Below are positions 10,190 through 62,499 of a stretch of 64,000 nt of DNA, one piece after another. The notes beneath the pieces were generated by a model. The model saw only the letters and a list, made by a program, of their open reading frames with translations. It searched no databases and was not told where the DNA came from. Each line of letters begins with the position of its first letter. The first letter of the stretch is position 1. The position numbers and the translations under genes are program-made. The DNA comes from Thermoplasmatota archaeon (GTDB lineage Archaea > Thermoplasmatota > Thermoplasmata > Lutacidiplasmatales > JAMCUS01), in assembly GCA_023379385.1 (NCBI GenBank), contig JAMCUS010000032.1, positions 14,243 through 78,242 of the forward strand, read 5' to 3'.

Positions 10190-11380
10190 TAAAAAGCGTA
10201 ATACAGAATTATAGTCCATCAGATAGAGTTTTCAGTCTTATGCATAAATTTACAGACGGTATTAATATGTGCATTAATATTGCTCTTGAAAAAAAAAATT
10301 AACCTCCAGAAATGCACTTTCAAAGAATGCATATCCACTCTTAACCGAGTATAAAATTCCCTCTTACTATTATCCGTCAATAATCAACAAGGCAATAGCA
10401 TTAACCAAAACCTACAACAAAAGATTGAGAAAAGGCAGGAAAGCAACCAGACCTCATGTTGAAAAGCCAATGCTGCCTACTTACTATGGGTTTAAAATTG
10501 AAAATGGCAATATTATGATTCCTGTTTCAAATGAGAAATATAAAAGAGAATATGAAGAAATATCATTAAATGAATATGTTCAAAAAAACATATCAGAAGT
10601 GAAAGTACACTCTTTTACATTGAATTAGACCAACCTTTCCTTATCAATAGGAAAGGATGTTGAAGTTATAGATTGTAAGAATACAGTTGGTGTAGACCGA
10701 AATTTGAAAAACGTAACTGTTGGTAATGAAGAGCATCAAGAGGTATATAACCTTTCAGACGTGGTAACCATTAAAAAAAGATATAAAAAGAAGATATCAC
10801 ATTTTAATAGAAATGATCGCAGGATAAAAAAGAAGATATATGAAAAATACGGTAAAAGATCTAAAAATAGAACTAAACAAATCATGCACACAGTGAGTAA
10901 ATAGATCGTGGAAAACGCAAAAAACAATAGCGAAGCAATAGTATTAGAAAATATCAAGGGTATAAAAGAGATAACACATAAAGGAGATAATAAAGGTAAA
11001 AATTACAGATTCATGTTTCATAATGCATTCCCATACGGTATGCTGGCAAATCAAATAAAATACAAGGGAGAATGGTTGGGTTTACGAGTAATAGAATTAT
11101 CAAGGAAAGAAACAAGGAACACAAGCAGAGAATGTTCGGTATGTGGGTCACTGACCCCCGAAAAGAACAGGGAAGAACTTTGATCTGTGAACGTTGTAGC
11201 CTGATAATAGACAGAGATGTAAATGCATCAATAAACATATCAAAACGTGGTCGTACATGGCTAACACGATCCCTACAGGAAATGGAAAAAGGGTGGTCAG
11301 GCGAAGCAATGAAGCAGTCAAAAGATGTGGAGCAGATGATCACAAGAGATAAAATCGTATCAAACTATGATATAAAATAA
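10190..11380 (+). pseudogene. IS200/IS605-type tnpB (OrfB) pseudogene with several frameshifts and stop codons
   Basis: ORF fragments 10425-10628, 10704-10904, 10908-11183 and 11072-11380 line up in series. They carry RuvC-I (GVDRNLKNVTVG), RuvC-II (IVLENIKGIKE) and the zinc-finger/RuvC-III segment (CSVCGS...CERCSLIIDRDVNASINI). There is an in-frame TAA at about 10902 and a frameshift near 11170. Confidence 0.6.
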
Positions 11381-11673: not shown

Positions 11674-12807
11674 ATGCCAAATGAATCTACTAATAATGTG
11701 ATATGTCCATTTTGTGGTGAGTCTGTTGATCAAAAATTGGCAGAGTGCCCCGTATGTGGAGCAAAGCTATTTGATGAGCTATTCATATGCCCCAGGTGTA
11801 CTGCTAGTGTTACATCTAAAGATGCAATATGTCCGTTATGTGGCGTTAAACTAGCAACAGAGATTTCAAAGGTACAGATAGAGGGTGGTAGTACATACGT
11901 TGTAACAGATGAAAATTTTTCATATAGGTTATTTAAAACCCTTACCGGGATGGATTACAAGGGATTGATATTATCAAAAATGAACTTACAGAAAATTGAA
12001 AAAAAATATTCCATAACTGATGCAACAGCGTATTGGTTGACAGCAACACAGGGAAAAGAAAAAACAATAGATCCACAGAGATTAGATTTTGAGTTGATGT
12101 ATACGGTATCTGAGTTTGTTAAAAACAATAGCCAAAGTGTTACAATCATAGATGCATTAACATTGCTTATATCTTCTAACGGTGGTCAAAAGGTTGGTGA
12201 TTTCATAAAGTATATTTCAGATCTTATATCCACAAAGGATTCAATCGTTATATTACCTGTTCAGGATAACTTCATGGAACAGAAAGATTATGATTTTATA
12301 AAGGAATATGTACAACCCATAAATTATAAAGAAATACAGAATGAGGTTACAGCAAATAAAGAAGCAGAAAAAATGAGAATTGTGATTAGAAAACAGAATA
12401 TAACTGGGAAAAAAGGCGATGAAAAGGTAATACCGTCATCCGCAAAAGTTGAAGGAACCGTTACTAGCGACATGAAGAATGATTTAAATAAAAAATCAAT
12501 GTTAACAGATACAACGCAAAATATAGAGGAGGTAAAAGGAAATATGAACCAATCTGTAGCTACAGGTCCAATAAGAATAAAATTAAGAGATTCTGAAACT
12601 GGTGCTGTACTTGAAATGGAGCTTGATATTGATAACACCATAGATGAACTCATAGAAAGTGCAGGCGCTTACTGGGAAAAGGCAACGGGTGTGTATGTTA
12701 TACGAAAAGGAAATAAAATTCTTAGAGGTAATATGAGAATTGGAGATGCCGATGTTAGAGATGGAGATATTATTGAGCTCATTCCAGATCCTGAAGGTGG
12801 AATATAA
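11674..12807 (+). CDS. Double zinc-ribbon + DUF835-like domain protein with C-terminal ThiS/MoaD/SAMP-like ubiquitin-like beta-grasp domain ending Gly-Gly-Ile
   Basis: The N-terminus has four CxxC pairs (CPFCG, CPVCG, CPRCT, CPLCG). The middle region has a DUF835-like WLT motif (ITDATAYWLTATQG). The C-terminal ~75 aa (IRIKLRDSE...VRDGDIIELIPDPEGGI) resemble the ThiS/MoaD tail (DGDxIxIxPPxxGG). It is the first gene of a tightly packed four-gene operon. Confidence 0.75.
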   Translation: MPNESTNNVICPFCGESVDQKLAECPVCGAKLFDELFICPRCTASVTSKDAICPLCGVKLATEISKVQIEGGSTYVVTDENFSYRLFKTLTGMDYKGLILSKMNLQKIEKKYSITDATAYWLTATQGKEKTIDPQRLDFELMYTVSEFVKNNSQSVTIIDALTLLISSNGGQKVGDFIKYISDLISTKDSIVILPVQDNFMEQKDYDFIKEYVQPINYKEIQNEVTANKEAEKMRIVIRKQNITGKKGDEKVIPSSAKVEGTVTSDMKNDLNKKSMLTDTTQNIEEVKGNMNQSVATGPIRIKLRDSETGAVLEMELDIDNTIDELIESAGAYWEKATGVYVIRKGNKILRGNMRIGDADVRDGDIIELIPDPEGGI

Positions 12808-12825
12808 AAATGGAGGTGGTTATAG

Positions 12826-13320
12826 ATGACTCAGCCACTTTCTTTTATTAGACAGAGATTACTAGCAGAAATTGAACAGGTTAAAAAGTTGATGGAGTAT
12901 CCTGTTGAGGTATCTGATCCAACTTTAACAAATTTTCCTATAGAAGTTACAATAACAATTCAAAAAATTCCTGGACCATATCTTAAGGATGGTAAGTTAT
13001 CGACACGATATACTCACAAATTCAAGATTATTGTAGATGCTGAATATCCCTATAAAAAACCAGTGATTCACTGGCTAACACCAATATTTCATCCTAACAT
13101 AATGCCACCTCATGAAGGTGGATACATATGTACAAAAATGTTAAAGGTATGGTCGTCTCAGTCATCCATTGTTTCTTTTATTCAGGGTGTGATAACATTG
13201 TTAAGCAATCCCAATCCATACGATCCACTAGGTAGTGATGCATGTTTAATGTCGGCACAATATTTTGTCAAACATCCGTATCACCCACCATCTATATTAA
13301 AAAAAGGAGAAGAAGACTGA
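12826..13320 (+). CDS. Ubiquitin-conjugating enzyme (E2/UBC fold) homologue
   Basis: UBC signature HPNImpphegGyICtkmLkvWs: the HPN motif, a catalytic Cys in the G-x-IC context, and a downstream Trp; 164 aa. Confidence 0.8.
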   Translation: MTQPLSFIRQRLLAEIEQVKKLMEYPVEVSDPTLTNFPIEVTITIQKIPGPYLKDGKLSTRYTHKFKIIVDAEYPYKKPVIHWLTPIFHPNIMPPHEGGYICTKMLKVWSSQSSIVSFIQGVITLLSNPNPYDPLGSDACLMSAQYFVKHPYHPPSILKKGEED

Positions 13321-13351
13321 TTATTAAAATCTAATAGGGGTATCATTTCAA

Positions 13352-15241
13352 ATGTCAAAAGGTATAAAGATCGTTGCGGAACATAAAAGAGAGGTTAAAG
13401 AAATACCTCCACCAGATAGAGATAGAATTTCATATCATAAATGGGATTCTGCAGAATCAACCGAAATTTATGTTAATACATATAGATCTGGCAATCTTTT
13501 TGATGTATATATATCCAAAAAAGCGGAGGAGAAGATGATGAATCACTGTCTGTCCGGTGTTCCAACAAGGACAGAGGTCATGGGTCTACTTGTAGGGGAT
13601 ATATACAGATATAACAATACAATATATGCAGTTATCAAGGATGTTTCCACTACAGAACTTGATGCCAATGCCGTTCATGTCCAGATAAATAAAGAGGATT
13701 CTTCATATACAAAATTATTTCAAAGATTAGATGAAATTGGCGCAAATTTTATTCTTGTCGGATGGTATCATTCACACCCAGGACATACATGTTTTCTATC
13801 TGAAACAGATATTAATACACAGAAAAAGATGTTTCCAGAATCATACCATTCTGCAATAGTTATAGACCCTATTTCACAGCAGTTTGAGGTGTTTACTGTT
13901 GACAATGAAGGTGGGTACATTAGAAGATCGCATGCAATCTTCTGGGATGATTTTGAAAAGCCCTATGTAGTTGAAGAGGCTCCTCCAGTACCATCATTTC
14001 AGGGTGGTTATGCTGCAAATGAGGGTATATTAGCCGAAAGGTATAACGATATTACCAATAGAGAAGCCATACTGAAAAATCATGAAATGGAATTAACTAA
14101 CCTCAGAAATAGCTTAATTGCGAAAGAGAGAGAACTAATCGAAAGAGAGAATATGTTTGCAAAACAGGGGCAGATGGCATCGGCAACTACCGCCACATAT
14201 GCTGATAGAATGAACATAGAAAGAGAGAGAATTGAATCTCTTGCTAAAAATATTGCTGTCAGAGATGCAGATCTAAGAAGAAGGGAAGAACAGATAAAAA
14301 ACATAGAAATGGAATTGAGAAAAAGAGAATCAGAAGTTGTCAAATATACTGGATTAACAGAGAGCATAAAAAAAGAATGGGAAAGAATAAGTACAGATAA
14401 AAATAATATTGAGTTTGCACAGAAATCTATATCCAGAAAGGAAATTGAATTGAAAGAGAAAGAGTCTATATTAAAAGCAAAGGAGGAGGAGCTGGCGGCT
14501 TTAGGATTGATACCCAGTGTTAAAGAGGAACTGGATAAATCAAAGATAGAACTTAATAGGCTCAATAATGAGATAAAACAGAGGGAGGAAGCACTAAAAT
14601 TAAAAGAGAATGATTATAATAAAAGAAGGAGGGAAATTGAAGCCATGCAAAAGGAATACACTTCGAAGCTGCATGAACTTAATGAACTGGAACTATCCCT
14701 GAAAACCAAATCTGTTACATTGACAACTAAAGAAGCAGAAATAGAGAAAATTAAGGAGTTACAGTCCGAAAAGGAAGTAGAACTTAAAAATCGTGAAACA
14801 AAGATCACTGAGATGGAAGAAAAACTGCAGCGTGGATTAACAGATCTGAAAAGTAGGACAGAAATACATGCAGCCAAAGAAAGCACATTCAGTTTGAAAG
14901 AGATGGAACTCCAGAAGGAGAGTAAAGAACTTGAAAATATTAATATAAAGCTTAAGAAAGAAGAGAAAATTATAAAAATGCTTACAGATACATTTGGAAA
15001 GACCGTTATCAGTAGTGGTGCCATAAAGCAATATAACAGTAGTGACGAATTTTATAAAGATATGATAATCAGAGCAAAGGAGCAACTTTCAACCATGGCT
15101 GAAGAGTTTGTAATAATACAAAAAAATACACAGAAAATGTTAACACTTCTGAAAACCACGAAAAAAATAGCAGATAAAACAGTTTCCAAAAGAAAAACAA
15201 AAAAGAAGGTACGAACTGTATGGAAAAAGGCAGCAAAATAA
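13352..15241 (+). CDS. JAB/MPN (JAMM) metallopeptidase fused to a ~400-aa coiled-coil region
   Basis: Complete JAMM motif: Glu in TEVMGLLVGD, then HSHPGHTCFLSETD (HxHx7Sx2D). The C-terminal ~420 aa are heptad-rich E/K/L repeats. Confidence 0.85.
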   Translation: MSKGIKIVAEHKREVKEIPPPDRDRISYHKWDSAESTEIYVNTYRSGNLFDVYISKKAEEKMMNHCLSGVPTRTEVMGLLVGDIYRYNNTIYAVIKDVSTTELDANAVHVQINKEDSSYTKLFQRLDEIGANFILVGWYHSHPGHTCFLSETDINTQKKMFPESYHSAIVIDPISQQFEVFTVDNEGGYIRRSHAIFWDDFEKPYVVEEAPPVPSFQGGYAANEGILAERYNDITNREAILKNHEMELTNLRNSLIAKERELIERENMFAKQGQMASATTATYADRMNIERERIESLAKNIAVRDADLRRREEQIKNIEMELRKRESEVVKYTGLTESIKKEWERISTDKNNIEFAQKSISRKEIELKEKESILKAKEEELAALGLIPSVKEELDKSKIELNRLNNEIKQREEALKLKENDYNKRRREIEAMQKEYTSKLHELNELELSLKTKSVTLTTKEAEIEKIKELQSEKEVELKNRETKITEMEEKLQRGLTDLKSRTEIHAAKESTFSLKEMELQKESKELENINIKLKKEEKIIKMLTDTFGKTVISSGAIKQYNSSDEFYKDMIIRAKEQLSTMAEEFVIIQKNTQKMLTLLKTTKKIADKTVSKRKTKKKVRTVWKKAAK

Positions 15242-16101
15242 AAATAATTACCAAGAATAAAAAAGAAAAAAAAGATTCTGTTAGCCAGGGCAAGGCAAAA
15301 AAAAGTATAAAAAAGTTAAAGATCGGGTATGAAGATAGCGATATACACGACAGGATTAAAAGAATACCATGGATAAAAATTGATAAAATCAAAAAATCAA
15401 GGGTGCTGGTTATTGGAGCCGGTGCAATAGGTAACGAGGTAATGAAAAATCTTGCCTTGTCAGGATTTAATGACATAACATTAATAGATATGGACCATGT
15501 GGTGATTTCAAATCTTAACAGATGTCTTTTTTTTACTTTTGAAGATGCAAAATCGAAAATATATAAGGTAGATGCTATTAAAAATCATATAAAAGATATG
15601 GTTTCATCAATCAATATCAAAGGAATTACAAAGCCAGTTGAAGAGATAGAGGAAGAGTTTTTCAACAATTTTGATATAATATTCGGTTGCGTGGATAACA
15701 TACTTGCCAGGGTCAGAATAAATAGCCTGGCGTCGCATTATCAGATTCCATATGTGGATGGTGGAACTCATGGGATGGTTGGTAAGGTACAGGTGATATT
15801 ACCTCCTGATACGCCATGCATTGAATGCAATCTAAATATTTCACATTACAAAAATTTGGAACAGCTTTTTACATGTTCAGGACGTGATGATACGAAGGCA
15901 TTCGAGCCAAAAATACCTGCTGAAGTCACAACAACAGCGATTATAGCGGGAGTCATGGTTAGAGAGGGACTAAAGATTTTATCTGATAAGAGAGACAATG
16001 TAATAAAGCATATATTCTATTATGATGGATTAACAAATAAATCAGATATTCTTGAATCAGAGATAAGCAAGGGATGCAGCAATCACAGTAAAAATCATTG
16101 A
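15220..16101 (+). CDS. E1-like ubiquitin-activating enzyme (ThiF/MoeB/UBA family)
   Basis: Rossmann motif VLVIGAGAIGNEV, adenylation motif DMDHVVISNLNRC, and the Cys-rich C-terminal region DTPCIECN; 22-nt overlap with the JAB gene. Confidence 0.85.
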   Translation: MEKGSKIKIITKNKKEKKDSVSQGKAKKSIKKLKIGYEDSDIHDRIKRIPWIKIDKIKKSRVLVIGAGAIGNEVMKNLALSGFNDITLIDMDHVVISNLNRCLFFTFEDAKSKIYKVDAIKNHIKDMVSSINIKGITKPVEEIEEEFFNNFDIIFGCVDNILARVRINSLASHYQIPYVDGGTHGMVGKVQVILPPDTPCIECNLNISHYKNLEQLFTCSGRDDTKAFEPKIPAEVTTTAIIAGVMVREGLKILSDKRDNVIKHIFYYDGLTNKSDILESEISKGCSNHSKNH

Positions 16102-17168
16102 TTGATAATTTTGAGTGGTGTTCTTTCCACTTCAAGTTTGTCTGATGTCGGATAACTTTCTGTTATGTAACTGCTGGCGTTGAGTTTCTTATATATATCA
16201 CTCAGGATCCATGACGCAATTTCTATCTTCTTTTTGTTTTTATTCACGAAGTAATATTTTTCAGGGACCTTCAGTGTATGCAGAATTTTAATAACATTGT
16301 TTGTGTCACCCTCTATCACACCCTTTATAAGCGTTCCGTCATCGGTAACAATTTCATAATTTTTTTTAACATTCACAGCTCTGATCCTCAATCTATTCCT
16401 GAGCTGTACTGAATCCTTAAACGGTGATGAGCAGAAATGCACGGTTAATCCGCTATCCGCAATGTTGCTAAAGACATTCTCAACACTCTCAAGACTGCCC
16501 ATGGCCTCTGCAGATTCTATGTTCCGCAGTTCGATACCTCTATTCCTCATTCTGATCCAGTTTGTAGGAGAGAATTCCAGTTCATTGAGATTTATGAATG
16601 GAACCTCTATTTCAGATAATGAATCGATGAGTCTCACGACGTTATTTTCTTTACCTGGTATTGCTGGAATTTCTACGCCAGCCGTATATCCCTCTTTATT
16701 GAGCTGTTTGAGGGTTGAATAATATGGTGATCCCTTTACCCTGTCCCACAAGTATGATGGTATGTGTATTCTTACTTCATCCACACCCGTATGAAACATC
16801 TTAATCAACAATTTGTGATTAGGTGTTATGGTGTATAGATGTATATGATGTTTCTCCCCAAAAGTCTCCTTCAATAATTTTATATAATGCAGGGTTCTGA
16901 AAGGAACTGATAACGGATCTCCACCAGTTATACCGGTGCCAGTCGATGATGATACAGTTACCTCTTCAATAATGTCATCATCATTGAATACAGCCTTTTC
17001 ATTGGCAAAGGTTTCTCCCTTCTTCCTCTCATCAGAGATAGGACAGTAAAAGCATCTCATAGAACATTTAGGTGTTACAAAAAGCACTGTTTTTCTTCCT
17101 TTCCTGCATAATTTGCAACCAACTGGCAATCTTCCAGAGAGCAATGAACCAGCGACAAGTTTACGCAT
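16095..17168 (-). CDS. Radical SAM domain protein (PflX-like, CxxxCxxC)
   Basis: CSMRCFYCP cluster near the N-terminus; 357 aa; convergent with the E1 gene. Confidence 0.65.
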   Translation of the reverse strand: MRKLVAGSLLSGRLPVGCKLCRKGRKTVLFVTPKCSMRCFYCPISDERKKGETFANEKAVFNDDDIIEEVTVSSSTGTGITGGDPLSVPFRTLHYIKLLKETFGEKHHIHLYTITPNHKLLIKMFHTGVDEVRIHIPSYLWDRVKGSPYYSTLKQLNKEGYTAGVEIPAIPGKENNVVRLIDSLSEIEVPFINLNELEFSPTNWIRMRNRGIELRNIESAEAMGSLESVENVFSNIADSGLTVHFCSSPFKDSVQLRNRLRIRAVNVKKNYEIVTDDGTLIKGVIEGDTNNVIKILHTLKVPEKYYFVNKNKKKIEIASWILSDIYKKLNASSYITESYPTSDKLEVERTPLKIINQ

Positions 17169-17254
17169 AGTATGATAATGGTACTGCGGTATATAAAAAT
17201 AAGCAACGCATGTAGAATAACTTTGATATATGAATTAAGGGATATGACTAAACG

Positions 17255-17920
17255 ATGAAGGAAAAGGTAGTTACACTGTTATCGGGTGGTCTAGATTCAT
17301 CCACGTTATTGGCATATCTCATAGATAATGGATATGAACCATATGTGATAACATTTGAATACGGGCAGATACACGAAAAGGAGATTATAAGTGCAGTAGC
17401 TATAGCGCGACATTACGGTATAAAGAATCACAAAATCATAAAAATAAACATGAAAGATATTGCCAAATCCGCTTTACTTGATAGAAATACTGGGATCCCC
17501 ATGGATAGATATGTCATGAATGAAATCCCGGTTACCTATGTTCCAGCGAGGAACATCGTCTTTCTATCCATTGCGCTATCATACGCAGAAAGCGAAAATA
17601 TAGAGAATATCGCAATAGGTGCAAATGCCATAGATTATAGCGGTTACCCAGATTGCAGAGAAGATTTCTTTAAATTATTTGAGGAAATGGCGAATGAAGG
17701 TACAAAAATGGGTTTATCATATGGAAATATAGAGATAATGAGGCCATTTATACATATGAGCAAGAAGGATATTGTGCTTTTAGGCAACTCTCTGCATCTA
17801 CCATTTGAAAAAACATGGAGCTGTTATAACGGTAACGAAAAGCCCTGCATGCACTGTGATTCATGCATCTTGAGAAGCAAAGGGTTTAAAGAAGCCAATG
17901 TTACAGATCCACTGGTGTAA
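17255..17920 (+). CDS. queC: 7-cyano-7-deazaguanine synthase QueC
   Basis: PP-loop LLSGGLDSST and the C-terminal zinc motif CxxC...C (CYNGNEKPCMHCDSC). Confidence 0.9.
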   Translation: MKEKVVTLLSGGLDSSTLLAYLIDNGYEPYVITFEYGQIHEKEIISAVAIARHYGIKNHKIIKINMKDIAKSALLDRNTGIPMDRYVMNEIPVTYVPARNIVFLSIALSYAESENIENIAIGANAIDYSGYPDCREDFFKLFEEMANEGTKMGLSYGNIEIMRPFIHMSKKDIVLLGNSLHLPFEKTWSCYNGNEKPCMHCDSCILRSKGFKEANVTDPLV

Positions 17921-18560
17921 CATGAATATTGTAGAAATTTTTGAATCAATACAGGGTGAAGGTCCCGATACTGGAAAGAGAACACTATTTATAAGAACTG
18001 CTAGATGCAATTTGAGGTGTATCTGGTGTGATACAAAATATTCATGGAATAATGGAGTGACGTATCATGTCGATGAACTGGTGAAAATAATTGAAAAGTA
18101 TAAGGCAAGTGATATTTCAATAACAGGCGGTGAGCCATTATTGCAGAAAAGTGAACTTGTTAAATTGTTGAAATTGATTGATAAAAAAAAGGATATAAAA
18201 ACTGTACTTATAGAAACCAATGGCGCCATAGATATACGCCCTTATCTGGTATTCAGGAAAATAAAAATTTCCATGGATGTCAAATGTCCTTCATCTGGCA
18301 TGACTGAATTCAATCTGTATGACAATATCAATTTGATAAGAAAACAGGATGTAGTGAAATTTGTAATAAAAGACGGGGTAGACTATAATTTTGCAAAAAA
18401 AATATTGGATGAACGGATGATAAAAGGAGAGGTTATTTTTCAGCCTGTATACGGTGCAGACCTTAGAACCATTGCTGAAAATATTATTAAAGATAAACTA
18501 AATGTGCGATTCATGGTACAGATGCATAAATATATATGGGGAGATGAAAAGGGACATTAA
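17898..18560 (+). CDS. queE: 7-carboxy-7-deazaguanine synthase QueE (radical SAM)
   Basis: CNLRCIWCDT radical-SAM cluster; overlaps the end of queC. Confidence 0.85.
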   Translation: MLQIHWCNMNIVEIFESIQGEGPDTGKRTLFIRTARCNLRCIWCDTKYSWNNGVTYHVDELVKIIEKYKASDISITGGEPLLQKSELVKLLKLIDKKKDIKTVLIETNGAIDIRPYLVFRKIKISMDVKCPSSGMTEFNLYDNINLIRKQDVVKFVIKDGVDYNFAKKILDERMIKGEVIFQPVYGADLRTIAENIIKDKLNVRFMVQMHKYIWGDEKGH

Positions 18561-30643: not shown

Positions 30644-33600
30644 TTATTTATTCAATTTTTCAAAGAAGCTCTTTATATTCTCTTTCATTCTGTCATTTAA
30701 CTCCTGCCCACGTTCCATGCATTCCTCCAGATCTCCTTTTATTTGTTCATATAACTCCTTCAACTTCCTGTCACCCTCCATTCTCTCTTTCAGGATCTCC
30801 CTTATATCCTCGTCCTCAAGTACCTCACTGATCTCTTTTACTACGTTCTTCTCTTCATACTCCTCTATCAGCTTCCTCGTCTCGTTTATCACTATGCCCT
30901 GTTTCCTGTCCGCTCTCCTGTATGCCCTCAGCTGTTCTACATCCTTGCCTAAATTATAGAGATCATTCAGTCTCTCTGCTATCTCTATCAGCCCTATTCT
31001 CTTTTCCTGCTCTCCCTTTACACAATCCATTATTAGCTCTTTTATCTCCGGATTATCTTTCAGCTCTTCACTGCTCTCCAGATCTTTTCCTATGTCTTCC
31101 TTCTCGGGCTCTATTCCTGTATATGCCCAGTACATTATTCTACCCAGTATACATGTCATTGTCTTCTCGTTCGGAAATTTGCCACCTTTCAATAGCTCCG
31201 GTGCTGCCCACTGCGGCGTGTATACCAGTTCATCACTTCTCGATATTGATCCCATTCTGAAGCAACCTCCCCAGTCTATCAGCTTTACCTTATTGCCTCC
31301 CACTATTATTATATGCTCCGGCTTCAGATCTGTATTCACTACTTTATGCATTTTCCACGCATACAGTAATGGATCTATGCAGTCGTAGAACACTCCCGCA
31401 AGTACCTCTTCCCTCGGTTTCTTTTTTACATATTCCCTGAGGTTATCTCCTTCTATCCACTCCATCTCTATATGCGTATTGTCGTAGTCATATACCTGCG
31501 CTATTCCTGAATGTTTCAGCTTCTTGTGCATCTCCGCCTCTTTCAGGAATCGCCTGCCCACGTCTCCTGCTGTAATAGGGTATTTCACTACCACTACCTG
31601 TTCCTCTATACTACCATCCTTTCTTCTTCTCTTCGCTTTCCACACCACACTCTGCCTGCTCTCGTGTACTGGTTTATCTCCTACAAATTGATAACTCTCA
31701 CCCAGTATATCGTGAAAGTACTGCCCTGGCGTTTTTTCATATTGTACAGGAACATCCATTTGCAGGGCTCCTGTCTCCACCTTCTCTGTTTGGCTTTTAT
31801 CTTCCTCTATGTACAGACTTTCCTTATCCCTGTACTCTTTTTCAAAACTTCTTCCCAGTGCATCCCTGTATGTCGCTTTAGCCTCCATTCTTATCTCGTT
31901 ACCTATCGTACCTAAAAACCGGATCTCTGTCTCTCTCACCTCTCCTGCCTTCAGATCTCCTACCTCTATTACTCTATTGTCCATTTTCGCTTCCCCTTCC
32001 GGTACTTTCAGTTCCACTCTGAGCTCTTTGATCTCCGATTTCCCATTGTTCGTTATCTGCATTTTCAGTTTTACTCTTCTGTTTCTTACGTACATGTTTC
32101 CTATTGAGATCGCTATGTCAGGTATAGTTTCATTAATTGATTTATCCAGTTTAGCTCCTGTCGCTCTCAGCTCCTCTAAATTACCCTCTTTTACAGATTT
32201 CTTTACACTCTTCTCATATTCCTCAATCATCTCTCCCAGTTTCTTCAGTTTCACCAACTTATCACTAACTGGATAATATTCTAGTATCACCGCTGCTCTC
32301 TGCCGGCATATCTCTATTCTTTTCTTGAGTTCGCTCCGGTCTACAACATTCTCCTCTACACCCTCTGTTAACTTCTTGATATTGTTGTATACAGCTCCGG
32401 TATCCCTGTACAGATCCTCTGCCTCCCTGTACTTTTCCAATTCCACCAGTCGCTCTCCTTCCTCAAGTTTCATATTAGCAGATTCATATTCCTCTTTCAG
32501 ATCTCTCTTTATACTCTCCAGCACCTCTATTGCAATTTCACCCACGGTTTTCTCTTCGTATCCCTTTGCTGTGGATTCCAATACCATAATCTTTCTGCTG
32601 TCATTTCTCAATTTAGCAATCTTTGATATTGCCACTGCATCAAGCACTCCTCTGGATCCACCACTAGCAAGATATCCCAGAGATCTGATTGCATTGCCTC
32701 TAACAGTTGCATCTTCATCAGATAAACACTGGATCAGTGCTGCAACACCTTTATCCTCTACAATATACGCACTCCATCCATCTTTGGCAATATTGCCAAG
32801 TACCCATGCCGCGTTCTGGCGTACATATACATCTTTATCTGATAGATTACGGATCATGGGAGCAATTCCATTCTCCTCTACTATATCCTTGCTCCATCCA
32901 TCATTGGCAATGTTGCCAAGTGCCCATGTTGCAACACCTCTTACATATCCATCGTTATCAGAAAGGCTCTGAATCAGTGAGGGAATGCCTCTTTCCTTAA
33001 CGATCTCCTTGCTCCATCCACCCTTAGCAATGTTGCCAAGTGCCCAGATCGCTTTGCCACGTATCTCAGCATCGCTATCTGATATGCTGTATATGAGTGG
33101 TGCAATTCCCTTCTCCTCTACAACCTCTTTATTCCATCCATCCTTCGTTATGAATCCCAGTGTATCCGTCATTTTACGCCTGACTTCTGCATCACTGTCA
33201 TATAGAACATGTACCAGTGGTGCGATTCCCTTCTCCTCTACTATATGTTTGCTCATTCCACTTTTGGCAATGTTACCAAGTGCCCATGCCGCGTTCTGGC
33301 GTACATATACAGAATTATCAGAAAGGCTGCGTAGCAATGGAGATATACCTTTCTCCTCTACTATATCCTTGCTCCATCCATCCTTGACAATGTTGCCAAG
33401 TGCCCATGTTGCAACACCTCTCACATATCCGTCGTTATCAGAAAGGCTATACACTAGCGGGGCAATGCCCTTCTCCTTAACGATCTCCTTGCTCCATCCA
33501 CCCTTAGCAATGTTGCCAAGTGTCCAGATCGCTTTGCCACGTATCTCAGCATCACTATTGGACAGGCAGTGTACCAGTGGTGCAATTCCCTTCTCCTCTA

Positions 33601-33724
33601 CTATATCCTTTGCTCCTCCGTCTTTGGCAATAAAGCCCAGGGCATTTACAGAAGTTTTCTGTATTGTAATATCCTCGCTTCTCAGATTATTTATCCAATT
33701 CGAAATCTCCCATCTGTTTACCAT
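30644..33724 (-). CDS. Armadillo-repeat protein with beta-sandwich middle domain and Hanks-type Ser/Thr protein kinase domain
   Basis: N-terminus: 8 x 40-aa repeats with the ARM consensus (IAPLVxxLSDxDxxVRxxAAWALGNIAKxGWSKxIVEEKG). Kinase motifs: VVVVK (VAIK), catalytic loop VNTDLKPEH, DWG (DFG) and TPQWAAPE. C-terminal coiled coil. Confidence 0.8.
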   Translation of the reverse strand: MVNRWEISNWINNLRSEDITIQKTSVNALGFIAKDGGAKDIVEEKGIAPLVHCLSNSDAEIRGKAIWTLGNIAKGGWSKEIVKEKGIAPLVYSLSDNDGYVRGVATWALGNIVKDGWSKDIVEEKGISPLLRSLSDNSVYVRQNAAWALGNIAKSGMSKHIVEEKGIAPLVHVLYDSDAEVRRKMTDTLGFITKDGWNKEVVEEKGIAPLIYSISDSDAEIRGKAIWALGNIAKGGWSKEIVKERGIPSLIQSLSDNDGYVRGVATWALGNIANDGWSKDIVEENGIAPMIRNLSDKDVYVRQNAAWVLGNIAKDGWSAYIVEDKGVAALIQCLSDEDATVRGNAIRSLGYLASGGSRGVLDAVAISKIAKLRNDSRKIMVLESTAKGYEEKTVGEIAIEVLESIKRDLKEEYESANMKLEEGERLVELEKYREAEDLYRDTGAVYNNIKKLTEGVEENVVDRSELKKRIEICRQRAAVILEYYPVSDKLVKLKKLGEMIEEYEKSVKKSVKEGNLEELRATGAKLDKSINETIPDIAISIGNMYVRNRRVKLKMQITNNGKSEIKELRVELKVPEGEAKMDNRVIEVGDLKAGEVRETEIRFLGTIGNEIRMEAKATYRDALGRSFEKEYRDKESLYIEEDKSQTEKVETGALQMDVPVQYEKTPGQYFHDILGESYQFVGDKPVHESRQSVVWKAKRRRKDGSIEEQVVVVKYPITAGDVGRRFLKEAEMHKKLKHSGIAQVYDYDNTHIEMEWIEGDNLREYVKKKPREEVLAGVFYDCIDPLLYAWKMHKVVNTDLKPEHIIIVGGNKVKLIDWGGCFRMGSISRSDELVYTPQWAAPELLKGGKFPNEKTMTCILGRIMYWAYTGIEPEKEDIGKDLESSEELKDNPEIKELIMDCVKGEQEKRIGLIEIAERLNDLYNLGKDVEQLRAYRRADRKQGIVINETRKLIEEYEEKNVVKEISEVLEDEDIREILKERMEGDRKLKELYEQIKGDLEECMERGQELNDRMKENIKSFFEKLNK

Positions 33725-59540: not shown

Positions 59541-60797
59541 GTGATTCATATGAAGGTGGATGTTAATAATGTAAATGAATGCAGTAATTCAAATTTATCC
59601 ATTACAGATCTAACTGTTTATTTAAATAAAAAAAAGATTTTAAACAACATATCCTTCACACTGAAACAGGGAACAATTCTGGGTATAATGGGTCCAAATG
59701 GTTCCGGTAAGACAACCCTTCTTAAAGCAATTGTAAATCTAGTAAAATCAGACGGAGATATAATCCTGAATGGAAAAATAATTAAAAAACTTTCTAAGCT
59801 TGAGATAGCAAAAAACATCTCATTTCTACCGCAGGTTACAGAGCTGTTCAGAGGATTCAAAAGTTTTGAGGTGGTACTGGTGGCGAGGTATCCACATAAC
59901 AGTGATTATATATTTGACAGAAAGGAAGACATAGAAAAGACGGAAAGAATTCTTGAGATTACGGGAACCATGAAGTATCGTGATAAATATCTTTCCGAAC
60001 TTTCCAGTGGTGAACGTGGAATGGTACTTATAGCGAGAGCACTGGCACAGGAAGGAAAGCTACTTCTCCTGGACGAACCTACAGCACATTTAGATGTAAA
60101 AAATCAGCTGGAGATTATGGATAAACTGAGGAATATTGTTAAAACGGATAACAGTATGGCTATAGTAACTTTTCACGATATTACCATGTGTAAAAAATTT
60201 TCAGATATGGTTATTATGCTGAGAGATGGATCTATAATAACATATGGTAAAACAGATGAGGTAGTTACTGAAGAAAACATAAAAAGATGTTTTGATGTGG
60301 ACCTTGATTTTAATATAGCAGCACCACCAAAAAAAATATTGAATATAAAACATGCACATATAATATGTGGTGCAGGCAGTGGAAAAGAGATAGCCAAATG
60401 GTTTAAAGGAAGAGGTGTAACAGTGACCATGGGTATATTAAGCCCAATGGATTCAGATTACATTGTTGCAAAATCACTTTCTATAAATGCCATTGTAGAA
60501 GAACCATTCAGATCAATATCGCCGGAGATGGTAGAAAAGCATAAAAAAGTTATTGAGAAGAGTTCAATCGTGATCATAACAGATTTTCCTGTGGGAAATG
60601 GTAACATAGATAACATAGATATTTTATTGCATTGTAATAAACAGATATTCATTATAGAAAAAAGCCAACCAGAAAGCAGGGATTATACTGCAGACAGGCG
60701 GTTTACTGTTATATGGAATGAAATCAAAAAAAAAGCAAAGGTTTTTAATAACGAAAACGATTTTTATAACTTTATTGAGGCCAATAGGTTTGAGTGA
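59541..60797 (+). CDS. ABC transporter ATP-binding protein with ~170-aa C-terminal extension
   Basis: Walker A GPNGSGKTT, signature LSSGERG, Walker B LLLDEP; there is an extra C-terminal domain of unknown function. Confidence 0.75.
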   Translation: MIHMKVDVNNVNECSNSNLSITDLTVYLNKKKILNNISFTLKQGTILGIMGPNGSGKTTLLKAIVNLVKSDGDIILNGKIIKKLSKLEIAKNISFLPQVTELFRGFKSFEVVLVARYPHNSDYIFDRKEDIEKTERILEITGTMKYRDKYLSELSSGERGMVLIARALAQEGKLLLLDEPTAHLDVKNQLEIMDKLRNIVKTDNSMAIVTFHDITMCKKFSDMVIMLRDGSIITYGKTDEVVTEENIKRCFDVDLDFNIAAPPKKILNIKHAHIICGAGSGKEIAKWFKGRGVTVTMGILSPMDSDYIVAKSLSINAIVEEPFRSISPEMVEKHKKVIEKSSIVIITDFPVGNGNIDNIDILLHCNKQIFIIEKSQPESRDYTADRRFTVIWNEIKKKAKVFNNENDFYNFIEANRFE

Positions 60798-62499
60798 TCT
60801 ATTTATGATTAATGATCTATCTTTTGTAAAAAATTTTGAATTTCCTGCAGTCTTATTCAGTGATCTGCCCATGCTGGAGAAAAACGATAGTTACTATACA
60901 TATTCTATAAGAGATAATACATCACACAAAAAAATATTCATTATAGACAACAGATACGAAATAGAGATTCCAGTACCATTTATTGATAAGGTTAGTGAAG
61001 CAGACCTGCCACATATATTCTGGAATCATTCAATTAATATGGATGATAAAGCAATAATTATTCCGTTTCTCAATATGGATGAAATATTTACCAGACCATC
61101 TGCAATGAGGGCCTCTTTTGAAAAAATATTATCTGTTAAAAAACACGAACATCAGGTCTGGGCAATGAATGTTGCTCTTCCAAACAGAGTAGCTTTGCTA
61201 ACCTATCTCAATGTTTCTATTTTTGATAGTACCCTGGTGGATAATCTGGGAAACAACGGAATATATATAGATGACTATTACTTTGGAAAGGTTCCATCCG
61301 ATCTATTATGCCGGTGCAAAAGCTGCCTTAATGGAAAGCTTGATAACATTGGCGTTATACAGCATAACAGGTATGTACTTTACAGAGAGGTTGAAAGGGT
61401 TAAACAATTTATCAAAGCAGGCCAGTTAAGAAGTTATGTAGAACAGAGAGTTGCAGAGGATCCAGCCGCCACTGCAGTGTTAAAGGAATTCAATATAAAC
61501 GGATACGCTATACTGGAAAAATATACGCCAGTTGTAGGCAAATTTTCTAATTATGTAACAGATCTATCCTTCAACAGGCCAGAAGTTGTAAGGTTCAGGA
61601 ACAGGATATCCAATATATCTATAAAACCAGATAAAAATATAGATACAGTGATACTCTTTCCCTGTTCCAAAAGAAAACCATACTCATTATCAAAAACACA
61701 CGGAATATTCTCATCCATAATTTCTGAAACAGGAATGAGAAGTAATATACATGAACTTATGATCACCTCTCCATTATCCGTTGTGCCGAGAGAATTGGAA
61801 AATTATTACCCTGCAATGAATTATGATACACCTGTTACAGGATACTGGGACGAAATAGAAAAAAAGGTGACTTCAGATGTACTGGAGAATTATTTAAAAC
61901 GCAACAAATATAAAAATGCAATAATACACCTTCATGGTGGAGAGGTGTTTGTTAAAGAGGTTGTAGAAAAATATGTTGATAATGTACACGTAAGCTCGGA
62001 TAACAATCCTTTATCAGATAATTCATTACACAACCTTAAAGAAACACTGATCGATTTAAAGAAAAATGTAAATTCAAAAATAAAAATAGATAAGAACAGG
62101 GGTTCAGTCAAATCAATGTTTACGTTCCAGTTTGGTAAGGATATAACAGATGGAGTAAATGTGATTATAAAAGGTTATTTTCCTGAATACAGAATAATTC
62201 ATAACAATAGGCAACTGGCAATGTTCAACGCAGCGGAGGGTAAATTTAGCCTGACTTTAGATGGTGCCGAACTTCTTTTAAACAACAAAATTAATGTCGT
62301 AGAGATAGAGAACCTGTCTATAAAGGGAGATATTTTTTCTCCTGCTGTTATCAGGGCTGACAGCAGTATAAGATCTGGAGACGAAGTTGTGGCAGTCTAC
62401 AATGATACCATAAAGGCCATCGGAGTTGCAAAGATGAACGGAGAAGAGATGGAGAGATCCCGCCATGGGCTTGCAATAAAGGTCAGAACGCATGTTTAA
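60718..62499 (+). CDS. Archaeosine synthase (ArcS)-like protein with C-terminal PUA domain
   Basis: 593 aa with a C-terminal PUA-like segment (KGDIFSPAVIRADSSIRSGDEVVAVY); queC and queE are in the same window. The real start is probably downstream of the 80-nt overlap. Confidence 0.5.
   Translation: MKSKKKQRFLITKTIFITLLRPIGLSDLFMINDLSFVKNFEFPAVLFSDLPMLEKNDSYYTYSIRDNTSHKKIFIIDNRYEIEIPVPFIDKVSEADLPHIFWNHSINMDDKAIIIPFLNMDEIFTRPSAMRASFEKILSVKKHEHQVWAMNVALPNRVALLTYLNVSIFDSTLVDNLGNNGIYIDDYYFGKVPSDLLCRCKSCLNGKLDNIGVIQHNRYVLYREVERVKQFIKAGQLRSYVEQRVAEDPAATAVLKEFNINGYAILEKYTPVVGKFSNYVTDLSFNRPEVVRFRNRISNISIKPDKNIDTVILFPCSKRKPYSLSKTHGIFSSIISETGMRSNIHELMITSPLSVVPRELENYYPAMNYDTPVTGYWDEIEKKVTSDVLENYLKRNKYKNAIIHLHGGEVFVKEVVEKYVDNVHVSSDNNPLSDNSLHNLKETLIDLKKNVNSKIKIDKNRGSVKSMFTFQFGKDITDGVNVIIKGYFPEYRIIHNNRQLAMFNAAEGKFSLTLDGAELLLNNKINVVEIENLSIKGDIFSPAVIRADSSIRSGDEVVAVYNDTIKAIGVAKMNGEEMERSRHGLAIKVRTHV

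What the first reader, a model, noticed from the sequence alone, without database searches (positions are those of the whole stretch)
11674..16101. Complete eukaryote-like Ubl-E2-JAB-E1 conjugation operon (Bil/Bub-like gene order) in a Thermoplasmatales-like archaeon
Four tightly packed or overlapping genes encode, in order, a protein ending in a ThiS/MoaD-like beta-grasp with terminal Gly-Gly, a UBC-fold E2, a JAMM deubiquitinase-like peptidase, and a ThiF/E1 adenylating enzyme. The E2 carries the HPN motif and a Cys in the canonical G-x-I-C-x-x-x-L-x-x-W context. The peptidase has an intact E...HxHx7Sx2D motif. An E2 argues for protein conjugation, not merely sulfur-carrier chemistry of the MoaD/ThiS type. 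The gene order Ubl-E2-JAB-E1 is that of bacterial Bil (BilABCD) antiviral operons. Here the Ubl is the C-terminal domain of a 377-aa ZnR-DUF835 protein, which recalls Bub-type systems where the Ubl is fused to an effector domain. Archaeal instances are rare (for example Caldiarchaeum), and this domain combination is not one I recognise.
Basis: partly seen in the sequence, partly recalled or inferred. Interest (0 to 1): 0.85.

Follow-up and report, generated by a model that had tools for sequence, protein, structure and literature searches.

The report
Archaeal ubiquitin operon with cargo-fused modifier
This Thermoplasmata archaeon carries a real, eukaryote-like ubiquitin-tagging gene set (E1, E2, Rpn11-like protease), but its ubiquitin-like tag is built onto the end of a 300-residue zinc-ribbon/KaiC-like protein, an arrangement not described before for this kind of system.

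Summary
The four genes exist as described, and every domain call holds: DZR+DUF835+Ubl, a UBC E2 (HPN, Cys102), a JAMM protease and a ThiF E1. Three corrections apply.

- The Gly-Gly is not terminal. It is followed by Ile, and by 1-9 variable residues in relatives, so this is a pro-form.
- The beta-grasp is ubiquitin-like (best fold match Caldiarchaeum ubiquitin), not ThiS/MoaD-like.
- The enzymes are not Bil or Bub family members. They are closest to eukaryotic UBE2T/Ubc13, SAE2/UBA3/UBA1 and Rpn11; only the gene order matches Bil.

The E2 family gave 112 matches in the one-genome-per-species collection, and all 80 loci retrieved are Thermoplasmata-type MAGs. There it is usually (E1)-free 77-82 aa Ubl-E2-short JAB, in a conserved housekeeping neighbourhood. 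The window belongs to a small clade in which the same Ubl is fused behind a zinc-ribbon/inactive-KaiC (DUF835) module, the JAB carries a ~400-aa predicted coiled coil, and E1 sits last.

It is most likely a genuine Ubl-conjugation cascade. A conserved internal SD+ATG suggests a free Ubl may also be made. It is a new variant of a known kind, and the targets are unknown.

The parts
11674..12807 (+). Modifier gene: 377-aa DZR - DUF835 (inactive KaiC/RecA-like) - disordered linker - ubiquitin-like domain - GG - Ile
   Evidence: ORF. Pfam DUF835 and DZR. Alignment with 5 orthologs. AF2 model.
11698..11853 (+). Double zinc ribbon (residues 9-60): four CxxC pairs at C11/14, C25/28, C39/42 and C53/56, all invariant
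   Evidence: Pfam DZR 1.6e-6, DZR_2 and Zn_Ribbon_1. Invariant Cys columns. Short beta hairpins in the model. Whether it is RING-like (cross-braced) was not testable.
11857..12393 (+). DUF835 / iKaiC alpha-beta domain (residues ~62-240), RecA-superfamily fold without a Walker A motif
12394..12564 (+). Low-complexity, poorly conserved linker (residues 241-297), kept in frame in all subclades despite indels. Contains an SD-like GGAGGT followed 10 nt later by an in-frame ATG (M289, nt 12538-12540).
   Evidence: pLDDT 25-46. Indel-rich alignment columns. Internal SD+ATG in all type-A subclades, with background statistics.
12565..12801 (+). Ubiquitin-like beta-grasp domain (residues 298-376) ending in the near-invariant ELIPDPEGG
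   Evidence: 52-55% identical (MAFFT) to free-standing 77-82 aa Ubls that end ...PDPEGG* in type-B operons. beta-beta-alpha-beta-beta-beta topology at pLDDT 83-89. Foldseek top hit Caldiarchaeum Ub 6fnn_C at 8.4e-7, then Hub1, SUMO and ISG15.
12802..12804 (+). One-residue C-terminal pro-peptide (Ile377) after the GG
   Evidence: The tail varies (I, K, IREGE, LGWxNLYLL) while the GG is invariant. Most free Ubls end at the GG.
12826..13320 (+). E2: UBC-fold conjugating enzyme, HPN 89-91, catalytic Cys102
   Evidence: Pfam UQ_con 5.1e-15. PDB phmmer gives UBE2T 7.8e-11 and Ubc13 with the Cys aligned. AF2 pLDDT 86.8. Foldseek gives Cdc34, UbcH5, Ubc12, E2-25K and UbcH7. Invariant residues.
13352..13966 (+). 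Rpn11-like JAMM/MPN+ metalloprotease domain (residues 1-205) of the 629-aa protein
   Evidence: Pfam JAB 6.4e-17. PDB hits: Rpn11 4.6e-18, Caldiarchaeum Rpn11-like 6fju 4.6e-13, CSN5 1e-10. E75, H140, H142, S150 and D153 are conserved in 81 orthologs.
14024..15241 (+). C-terminal extension of the JAB protein (residues ~225-629): predicted coiled coil, then a Lys-rich tail. Specific to the fused-operon clade; orthologs are 634-884 aa.
   Evidence: Residues 230-560 are E 18%, K 14%, L 11%, with only 1 Pro and 6 Gly. Weak SMC/HmpF hits. Homologous coiled region in L011. Short-JAB versus long-JAB split. The coiled-coil call is an inference from composition.
15220..16101 (+). E1: single ThiF-type adenylation domain. 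GxGxxG at 66-71, Zn site C200xxC203 + C286xxH289, candidate catalytic Cys219 in a short crossover loop. No UFD and no inserted Cys domain. Lys-rich N-terminal 35 aa.
   Evidence: Pfam ThiF 3.8e-54. PDB hits: SAE2 1.5e-27, UBA3 1.9e-25 and UBA1 1.1e-24, versus BubCD 1.8e-13, MoeB 2.7e-13 and ThiF 1.2e-11. All six Cys invariant in 59 orthologs.

Best explanation
This is a genuine, eukaryote-like (Caldiarchaeum-type) ubiquitin-like protein conjugation system belonging to a Thermoplasmata-wide family. In this small clade it has been remodelled so that the modifier is encoded as the C-terminal domain of a zinc-ribbon / inactive-KaiC (DUF835) protein. Proposed mechanism: (1) the Rpn11-like JAMM protease removes the residue(s) after the invariant Gly-Gly. 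(2) The ThiF-type E1 adenylates Gly376 and forms a thioester on crossover-loop Cys219. (3) The Ubl passes to Cys102 of the HPN-type E2. (4) The E2, with no dedicated E3 in the operon, transfers it to lysines of targets, so the whole DZR-iKaiC module becomes covalently tethered to the target, or to other copies of itself. (5) The same JAMM reverses the modification. Its ~400-aa predicted coiled coil probably serves as a scaffold or localisation device. A conserved internal SD+ATG just upstream of the Ubl suggests the gene may also give a free ~89-aa pro-Ubl. The role is more likely cellular regulation or proteostasis than antiviral defence. Shown here: the domain identities, the catalytic residues, homology of the fused Ubl to free GG-ending Ubls, and the phyletic and syntenic pattern. 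Inferred: every biochemical step, the targets, and whether the long form, the short form or both are conjugated.
For: Pfam, PDB and fold evidence identifies all four proteins. The fused Ubl is 52-55% identical (MAFFT) to free 77-82 aa Ubls ending exactly at ELIPDPEGG in (E1)-Ubl-E2-JAB operons in about 70 species. The GG is invariant while the tail varies, even within the window's own population (I versus K in L006). This mirrors the Caldiarchaeum pro-Ub, which is cleaved by CsRpn11 (PMC5654768, PMC6043591). No free-standing Ubl gene was found in any type-A locus or elsewhere in the window. The fusion ORF stays open across an indel-rich linker in three subclades whose E2s are only 56-70% identical. 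Catalytic residues of E1, E2 and JAB are invariant in 59-85 orthologs. Where this Ubl family occurs outside an E1/E2 context (P0135, P0176), the GG is lost, which argues that the GG is retained in the fusion for conjugation. The type-B form lies in a conserved neighbourhood next to ribosomal protein genes in about 40 species. The internal SD+ATG is reported.
Against: There is no biochemical evidence. No E3 or target is identified. The E1 lacks the UFD and Cys domain of canonical E1s, so how it recruits the E2 is unknown. The AF2 models rest on 10-sequence alignments. The conserved internal start could mean that the free Ubl is the only conjugated species. Type-A flanks differ between genera, and a degraded TnpB lies immediately upstream, so some mobility cannot be excluded.
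Confidence: 0.6

Rival explanations
1. The functional modifier is a free ~89-aa pro-Ubl made by internal translation initiation at M289. The in-frame fusion to DZR-DUF835 is a by-product of stop-codon loss, or gives a separate, non-conjugated protein.
For: An SD-like motif (GGAGGT, GAGGTG or AGGTGGTG) lies 6-10 nt before an in-frame ATG, 1-12 codons upstream of the Ubl core, in all three type-A subclades, within an otherwise unconserved linker. Free Ubl genes in type B use AGGTGGT. SD-like motifs precede 26% of annotated starts but only 6% of internal ATGs, and the chance of such a pair in a 15-codon window is about 0.023. A gene caller called exactly this short ORF on a truncated contig (P0017).
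Against: The long ORF is kept open through 55-75 variable linker codons in lineages whose E2s are only 56-70% identical. The three subclades share ancestry, so the SD+ATG could be a relic. Both products may coexist.
Confidence: 0.15
2. The Ubl is an integral, non-conjugated UBL domain, as in Rad23, Dsk2 or parkin. It docks the DZR-iKaiC protein onto the E1/E2/JAB machinery or a proteasome/Cdc48-type unfoldase, or marks it as the system's substrate.
For: The same Ubl family does occur as an internal, GG-less domain in P0135 (TPR - coiled coil - Ubl - DUF835) and fused to FHA in P0176. Integral use, and an association with DUF835, therefore exist.
Against: In the fusion the ELIPDPEGG end is invariant and lies at the C-terminus with a short variable tail, exactly as in conjugatable pro-Ubls. 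No other Ubl gene is present in type-A loci for the E1 and E2 to act on.
Confidence: 0.12
3. It is a Bil/Bub-like antiviral defence operon. Conjugating a bulky Ubl fusion to viral structural proteins would block virion assembly.
For: The gene order Ubl-E2-JAB-E1 equals BilABCD. Bil and Bub Ubls also come with N-terminal domains and a conserved Gly followed by up to 9 variable residues (PMC10557695, PMC11601596). Type-A flanks are not conserved between genera, and a degraded TnpB lies upstream.
Against: The E2 is HPN type, not CEHH or Ser. The E1 is a single ThiF domain with a loop Cys, not IAD-AAD-CYS or Tyr. There is no DUF6527. PADLOC gives no hit for the Ubl or the E2 and only generic JAB and Cap2-E1 hits. 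Sequence neighbours are eukaryotic and Caldiarchaeum proteins. The sister type-B form is vertically inherited in a housekeeping neighbourhood. No defence genes flank the operon.
Confidence: 0.08
4. It performs sulfur-carrier (SAMP, Urm1, MoaD or ThiS type) chemistry for cofactor or tRNA modification.
For: The E1 is minimal and resembles MoeB/ThiF in size. QueC, QueE and a radical-SAM gene lie downstream in the window.
Against: An E2 with an invariant HPN/Cys is present. The Ubl fold is ubiquitin/SUMO-like. The E1 has no rhodanese domain and is closer to SAE2, UBA3 and UBA1 than to MoeB or ThiF. The QueC/QueE pathway (preQ0/archaeosine) is not sulfur-carrier dependent, by established knowledge. 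Those neighbours are confined to the window's own close relatives.
Confidence: 0.03

Closest known systems
Caldiarchaeum subterraneum / Asgard eukaryote-like ubiquitylation operon (Ub, E1, E2, srfp RING E3, Rpn11; Nunoura 2011; Hennell James 2017, PMC5654768; Fuchs 2018, PMC6043591)
   Same: It has a ubiquitin-fold modifier with a GG plus a C-terminal pro-peptide, and its best fold hit is CsUb 6fnn_C. It has an HPN/Cys UBC E2. Its Rpn11-like JAMM hits CsRpn11 6fju at 4.6e-13. Its E1 adenylation domain is closest to eukaryotic E1s. The genes are organised as an operon.
   Different: There is no RING E3 in the operon. The E1 lacks the C-terminal UFD and the ~60-aa Cys domain. The host lineage is Thermoplasmata. 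In this clade the modifier is fused behind DZR+DUF835 and the JAMM carries a ~400-aa predicted coiled coil.
Thermoplasmata (E1)-Ubl-E2-JAB operon, 'type B' in this report. Essentially undescribed: its E2 clade appears in passing in the E2/UEV tree of bioRxiv 10.1101/2023.07.25.550441.
   Same: The Ubl (52-55% identity), E2 (42-49%), JAB and E1 are orthologous, with the same invariant ELIPDPEGG and the same catalytic residues.
   Different: In type B the Ubl is free-standing (77-82 aa), the JAB is ~215 aa without a coiled coil, E1 comes first or is encoded elsewhere, and the chromosomal neighbourhood is conserved. The window's type A is rearranged to fusion-E2-long JAB-E1.
Bacterial Bil (BilABCD) antiphage operons
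   Same: The gene order is Ubl-E2-JAB-E1. The JAB pre-processes a Ubl whose conserved Gly is followed by a short variable tail. Some BilA proteins have N-terminal extensions.
   Different: BilB is CEHH type without HPN. BilD is an IAD-AAD-CYS pseudodimer with a PF14459 N-terminal domain. Bil operons are sparsely distributed and have a defence function. None of these features is met here.
Bacterial Bub (6E/DUF6527) operons
   Same: The Ubls carry 'a variety of N-terminal domains', and a JAB processes the pre-protein.
   Different: Bub uses an E2 Ser and an E1 Tyr (oxyester chemistry), Ubl-E2 or JAB-E1 or E2-E1 fusions, and a DUF6527 serine protease. Here the E2 and E1 have Cys, the enzymes are separate proteins, and there is no DUF6527.
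DUF835 / iKaiC output domains of archaeal signalling proteins (Galperin et al. 2018, PMC5847659) and FlaH/ArlH-type KaiC-like proteins
   Different: Known DUF835 architectures are REC-DUF835, TM-DUF835 or tandem DUF835. A C-terminal conjugatable Ubl has not been reported.

Membership tests
Archaeal eukaryote-like ubiquitylation system (Caldiarchaeum type) | Ubiquitin-fold modifier ending in Gly-Gly, with or without a pro-peptide | tested here: met
   beta-grasp at pLDDT 83-89. Foldseek top hit CsUb at 8.4e-7. Invariant PDPEGG plus a 1-9 aa tail.
Archaeal eukaryote-like ubiquitylation system (Caldiarchaeum type) | UBC-fold E2 with HPN and a catalytic Cys | tested here: met
   UQ_con 5.1e-15. 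Cys aligned with the catalytic Cys of UBE2T. AF2 plus Foldseek hit eukaryotic E2s. HPN and C102 invariant.
Archaeal eukaryote-like ubiquitylation system (Caldiarchaeum type) | Rpn11-like JAMM protease with Ex(n)HxHx7Sx2D | tested here: met
   Rpn11 4.6e-18, CsRpn11 4.6e-13, motif invariant.
Archaeal eukaryote-like ubiquitylation system (Caldiarchaeum type) | E1 with an adenylation domain and a catalytic Cys | tested here: met
   ThiF 3.8e-54, closest to SAE2, UBA3 and UBA1. Invariant C219 in the crossover loop. Thioester formation itself is not testable here.
Archaeal eukaryote-like ubiquitylation system (Caldiarchaeum type) | E1 C-terminal ubiquitin-fold domain (Clusters I/II of Hennell James 2017) and an inserted ~60-aa Cys domain | tested here: not met
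   The protein is 293 aa and ends just after the adenylation domain. Only ~35 residues lie between C203 and the TTT motif.
Archaeal eukaryote-like ubiquitylation system (Caldiarchaeum type) | Small RING-finger E3 in or next to the operon | tested here: not met
   No RING Pfam hit above threshold in the operon or its flanks. The N-terminal 4xCxxC module scores as DZR, with zf-C3HC4_3 only at E 0.0086 and sub-threshold. Whether the DZR is RING-like in 3D could not be tested.
Bil (BilABCD) | Gene order Ubl-E2-JAB-E1 | tested here: met
Bil (BilABCD) | E2 BilB with Cys plus adjacent His (CEHH) and no HPN | tested here: not met
   The E2 has a canonical HPN and matches Pfam UQ_con and eukaryotic E2s.
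Bil (BilABCD) | E1 BilD with the IAD-AAD-CYS architecture (PF14459 N-terminal domain) | tested here: not met
   Single ThiF domain of 293 aa, no PF14459 hit.
Bil (BilABCD) | Sparse, defence-associated distribution and antiphage activity | tested here: not met
   PADLOC gives no system-level hits. The type-B sister operon is syntenic in about 40 species. Antiviral activity itself is not testable here.
Bub (6E/DUF6527) | E2 catalytic Ser, E1 crossover-loop Tyr, and the DUF6527 (BubE) protease | tested here: not met
   E2 Cys102 and E1 Cys219 are invariant. No DUF6527 in the locus.
Sulfur-carrier beta-grasp systems (MoaD, ThiS, SAMP, Urm1) | E1-only activation without an E2; linkage to Moco, thiamine or tRNA-thiolation genes; MoaD/ThiS-like fold | tested here: not met
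   An E2 is present. No such neighbours. The fold hits listed are ubiquitin-type (Ub, SUMO, Hub1, ISG15, NEDD8) and no MoaD or ThiS appears among them.
DUF835 / iKaiC | Match to PF05763 above the gathering score; RecA/KaiC fold lacking a Walker A | tested here: met

The most novel reading that the evidence does not exclude
A 'cargo-carrying ubiquitin' in the archaeal, eukaryote-like lineage. Conjugation by a canonical HPN E2 would covalently attach an entire zinc-ribbon/KaiC-like signalling module to target proteins, or polymerise it. The same gene would also supply a free Ubl by internal initiation. A coiled-coil-anchored Rpn11 homolog would write-protect or erase the mark. Together with the Thermoplasmata-wide E3-less E1-Ubl-E2-Rpn11 operon, this would be a vertically inherited, pre-E3 stage of ubiquitin signalling outside the Asgard/TACK archaea. 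The recurring Ubl-DUF835 link (also seen in P0135) hints that iKaiC proteins are its effectors or receptors.
Probability: 0.3. Interest if true: 0.75.

Novelty: new variant of a known kind. Interest (0 to 1): 0.6.

Why it matters
Eukaryote-like ubiquitin systems in archaea have been characterised only from Caldiarchaeum and discussed mostly for Asgard/TACK lineages.

This locus points to a large, apparently vertically inherited E1-Ubl-E2-Rpn11-like family in Thermoplasmata that works without a recognisable E3. That is relevant to how ubiquitin signalling was assembled before eukaryotes.

The window's variant adds something not seen in that lineage: the modifier is welded to a KaiC-like signalling domain, and the deubiquitinase to a long predicted coiled coil. 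If the whole fusion is conjugated, it is a natural example of ubiquitin-mediated covalent recruitment of an effector domain. It would also give DUF835/iKaiC, a widespread archaeal domain of unknown function, its first functional context.

All the components are small and soluble-looking, which should suit in vitro reconstitution.

Tried and rejected
- **PADLOC scan.** Only generic JAB and Cap2-type E1 hits, and nothing for the Ubl or E2, so classification as a defence system was rejected.
- **NCBIfam.** No family reaches its cut-off.
- **Rfam and tRNA scans of the window.** Nothing near the operon.
- **Type-B fifth gene as a DUF835 equivalent or E3.** The conserved 377-388 aa protein downstream of type-B operons has no similarity to DUF835 or to the JAB extension. 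It has a signal peptide, many N-glycosylation sequons and a C-terminal TM anchor, so it is probably only a syntenic surface protein.
- **Exhaustive representative search with a Ubl profile.** HMMER kept the DUF835 columns (361 profile positions), so the top 150 were mostly DUF835 proteins. It still showed that no other C-terminal DUF835-Ubl-GG fusion ranks among them, and it revealed P0135 and P0176.
- **Rooting of the E2 tree with human UBE2D2.** Type A is monophyletic and sister to all of type B. The outgroup is too distant to decide which architecture is ancestral.
- **RING-likeness of the DZR.** Could not be assessed, because the Ubl and RecA-like domains dominate the fold searches of the full-length model.
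- **Species composition of 'Cluster III' archaeal operons in Hennell James 2017.** It is given only in a figure, so I could not tell whether Thermoplasmata MAGs were included there.

Full report
**1. The observation**

The four ORFs are at exactly the coordinates given, all on the + strand:
- 11674-12807 (377 aa)
- 12826-13320 (164 aa)
- 13352-15241 (629 aa)
- 15220-16101 (293 aa)

They are separated by 18 nt, 31 nt and a 22-nt overlap. A convergent radical-SAM gene overlaps the end of the last ORF.

Pfam confirms every domain call well above chance: DUF835 3.8e-19 plus DZR 1.6e-6; UQ_con 5.1e-15; JAB 6.4e-17; ThiF 3.8e-54.

One detail is wrong. The first protein ends ...ELIPDPEGGI, so the di-glycine is followed by one residue.

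**2. The C-terminal domain is a bona fide ubiquitin-like modifier**

Pfam sees the tail only weakly (YukD and Rad60-SLD, both sub-threshold). The decisive evidence is comparative.

- More distant E2 homologs (about 45% identity) sit in operons that contain a free-standing 77-82 aa ORF. That ORF is 52-55% identical to residues 298-376 of the fusion and ends exactly at ...ELIPDPEGG*.
- Across about 90 loci this C-terminus is nearly invariant. Most free forms stop at the GG, and some carry 1-8 extra residues.
- All 17 fused forms carry a tail: I, K, IREGE or LGWxNLYLL. An invariant GG with a variable tail is the signature of a pro-modifier.
- An AF2 model (10-sequence alignment, mean pLDDT 71) gives, in order: zinc-ribbon hairpins; an alpha/beta domain (60-240; pLDDT mostly 75-89); a disordered linker (242-297, pLDDT about 25); and a beta-beta-alpha-beta-beta-beta module (300-371, pLDDT 83-89).

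The domain is therefore ubiquitin-like, not ThiS/MoaD-like.

**3. The enzymes**

*E2.* phmmer against the PDB hits UBE2T (7.8e-11) and Ubc13, with the catalytic Cys aligned. The AF2 model (pLDDT 86.8, pTM 0.81) has the UBC topology, and all top-50 Foldseek hits are eukaryotic E2s: Cdc34, UbcH5, Ubc12, E2-25K, UbcH7, Ubc13 and Ubc9.

*JAB.* The best hits are Rpn11 (4.6e-18), the Caldiarchaeum Rpn11 homolog 6fju (4.6e-13) and CSN5.

*E1.* The best hits are SAE2 (1.5e-27), UBA3 (1.9e-25) and UBA1 (1.1e-24). These are far ahead of BubCD (1.8e-13), MoeB (2.7e-13) and ThiF (1.2e-11).

*Conservation.* In alignments of 59-85 orthologs:
- E1 keeps GxGxxG, a C200xxC203...C286xxH289 zinc site and crossover-loop Cys219.
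- E2 keeps HPN and Cys102.
- JAB keeps E75, H140, H142, S150 and D153.

The E1 is minimal. It has no UFD and no inserted Cys domain.

**4. Distribution and two architectures**

The word-indexed protein search found only 10 E2 clusters and 3 fusion clusters. A motif scan of a one-genome-per-species collection found 112 relatives. All 80 loci returned are MAGs labelled Thermoplasmata, Thermoplasmatota, Methanomassiliicoccales or the equivalent. The scan uses family-specific motifs, so it defines this family rather than all archaeal E2s.

Classifying all the loci gives three types:
- **Type B (about 70 loci):** (E1)-Ubl(77-82 aa)-E2-JAB(~215 aa). E1 is adjacent in most loci.
- **Type A:** fusion-E2-long JAB (629-884 aa)-E1. 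It occurs only in the window's clade (L001-L010), L016/L017 (E2 70% identical) and L011-13/L018/L023 (56-57%).
- **A third form (L046, L053, L056):** E2 plus a TM-anchored JAB, with no Ubl nearby.

Type A is monophyletic on an E2 tree.

Type B lies in a conserved neighbourhood in about 40 species: MttB-NicX-E1-Ubl-E2-JAB-surface glycoprotein-SIS-AP endonuclease-rpL18e/L13/S9-RpoN. That indicates vertical inheritance, not a defence island.

Type-A flanks differ between genera. In the window a degraded TnpB lies upstream and QueC/QueE lie downstream. Neither is conserved beyond close relatives.

**5. The N-terminal module**

The exhaustive representative search returned 4176 matches at E <= 0.001. 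The top 150 are mostly DUF835 proteins with the domain C-terminal or in tandem, and none is another DUF835-Ubl-GG fusion.

That search did reveal two related proteins:
- **P0135 (1684 aa):** FYVE-like zinc finger - TPR - coiled coil - the same Ubl family, internal and without GG (ELIPDPKPE) - C-terminal DUF835.
- **P0176:** Ubl without GG, fused to FHA.

So this Ubl family is associated with DUF835 twice, independently. Where it is not conjugatable the GG is lost, but the GG is strictly kept in the operon-encoded fusion.

**6. A possible second product**

In the otherwise unconserved linker, all three type-A subclades have an in-frame ATG 1-12 codons before the Ubl core. Each is preceded at 6-10 nt by an SD-like motif:
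- window: GAGGAGGT-N10-ATG (M289)
- L016/L017: GAGGTG-N9-ATG
- L011/L018/L023: AAGGTGGTG-N6-ATG

Free Ubl genes of type B use AGGTGGT.

In the window, SD-like 5-mers precede 13 of 50 annotated starts, including the fusion gene and the E2 gene, but only 26 of 419 internal in-frame ATGs. The chance of such a pair in a 15-codon window is about 0.023. The subclades are not independent, so this is suggestive only. It raises the possibility that a free ~89-aa pro-Ubl is made alongside the 377-aa fusion.

**7. Mechanism**

I infer the mechanism by analogy with the reconstituted Caldiarchaeum cascade. There, Rpn11 removes a 9-residue pro-peptide, E1 cannot activate the uncleaved form, and E1 and E2 are charged and auto-modified (PMC5654768, PMC6043591).

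The steps would be:
1. JAMM cleavage after Gly376.
2. E1 adenylation and a Cys219 thioester.
3. Transfer to E2 Cys102.
4. E3-independent transfer to lysines.
5. Reversal by the JAMM.

No other Ubl gene exists in type-A loci or in the window, and the long ORF is maintained. The full-length DZR-iKaiC-Ubl is therefore the most likely substrate of the cascade, which would covalently tether an iKaiC module to its targets. Every biochemical step is inferred, and the targets are unknown.

**8. Comparison with known systems**

- **Bil:** matches in gene order only. BilB is CEHH type, BilD is IAD-AAD-CYS, and Bil is a sparsely distributed antiphage system (PMC11354881, PMC10557695).
- **Bub:** uses an E2 Ser, an E1 Tyr and the DUF6527 protease (PMC11601596). 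None of these is met. What is shared with Bil and Bub is the idea of Ubls with N-terminal domains and variable post-Gly tails.
- **Caldiarchaeum/Asgard type:** the closest family. It shares the Ub fold, the HPN E2 and the Rpn11-like JAMM. The RING E3 and the E1 UFD/Cys domain are missing here.
- **Prior notice:** a 'Ca. Thermoplasmatota E2' clade is mentioned in passing in one E2/UEV phylogeny (bioRxiv 10.1101/2023.07.25.550441). Fuchs 2018 notes Rpn11-like JAMMs in Ub-E1-E2 operons without an E3.

I found no description of the Thermoplasmata operon as such, nor of a DUF835-Ubl fusion. 'DUF835' occurs in a single paper in the library.

**9. Verdict**

The conjugation-system interpretation is supported, and the Bil/Bub and defence framing is not.

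It is a new variant of a known kind: an archaeal eukaryote-like ubiquitin system with an unusual fused modifier and a coiled-coil deubiquitinase. I score interest at 0.6. It is a good candidate for reconstitution, but there is no functional evidence and no known target.

Noticed in passing
window 12520-12540 (linker of the fusion gene); equivalent positions in L011, L016, L017, L018 and L023: A conserved SD-like motif plus an in-frame ATG lies just upstream of the Ubl domain, in an otherwise unconserved linker. This suggests internal initiation of a free ~89-aa pro-Ubl from the fusion gene.
   Followed up: partly
L097 8001-13055 (protein P0135; JGI 3300041077, contig Ga0452210_000044): A 1684-aa protein with the architecture FYVE-like zinc finger - TPR - long coiled coil - internal copy of the same Ubl family without GG (ELIPDPKPE) - PE-rich linker - C-terminal DUF835. 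It is a second, independent Ubl-DUF835 association. P0176 is a Ubl (no GG) fused to FHA.
   Followed up: partly
L046 9932-11648; L053 4801-6507; L056 4786-7442: A third operon form. The E2 is followed by one or two longer JAB proteins (263-362 aa), most ending in a hydrophobic, TM-like segment. No Ubl or E1 is detectable within the locus.
   Followed up: partly
L014 5025-6158 and orthologs in 39 type-B loci: A conserved 377-388 aa protein lies directly downstream of the type-B JAB. It has a signal peptide, many N-x-S/T sequons, a C-terminal TM anchor and no Pfam match. It is probably a surface glycoprotein and only a syntenic neighbour.
   Followed up: partly
window 10908-11380 (+): Two overlapping short ORFs match the Cas12f1-like/TnpB TNB zinc-finger domain. 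They are a degraded IS200/605-type TnpB remnant immediately upstream of the operon. Gene calls in this stretch differ between otherwise identical MAG contigs (L001 versus L002).
   Followed up: no
window 30644-33724 (-): A 1026-aa protein with about 600 residues of HEAT/Armadillo repeats fused to a Ser/Thr protein kinase domain (Pkinase 3.6e-19). This is a eukaryote-flavoured architecture in the same genome.
   Followed up: no
window 16095-18560 and 60718-62499: A radical-SAM/DUF8061 gene, QueC and QueE lie next to the operon, and a DUF5591+PUA protein (ArcS-like) lies 45 kb away. These are scattered archaeosine/preQ0 pathway genes and are not conserved next to the Ubl operon in other genera.
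   Followed up: partly
L011 8524-11154 (876-aa JAB ortholog): In the L011/L018/L023 subclade the long JAB protein carries an extra CxxC...CxxC zinc ribbon (residues ~235-258) between the JAMM domain and the coiled coil. The window protein lacks it.
   Followed up: no
window 15220-15330 and 15170-15241: Both the C-terminal tail of the JAB protein (KRKTKKKVRTVWKKAAK) and the N-terminal 35 residues of E1 (MEKGSKIKIITKNKKEKKDSVSQGKAKKSIKKLK) are strongly Lys-rich. They are encoded around the 22-nt gene overlap. Their function is unknown; they may bind nucleic acid or an acidic partner.
   Followed up: no
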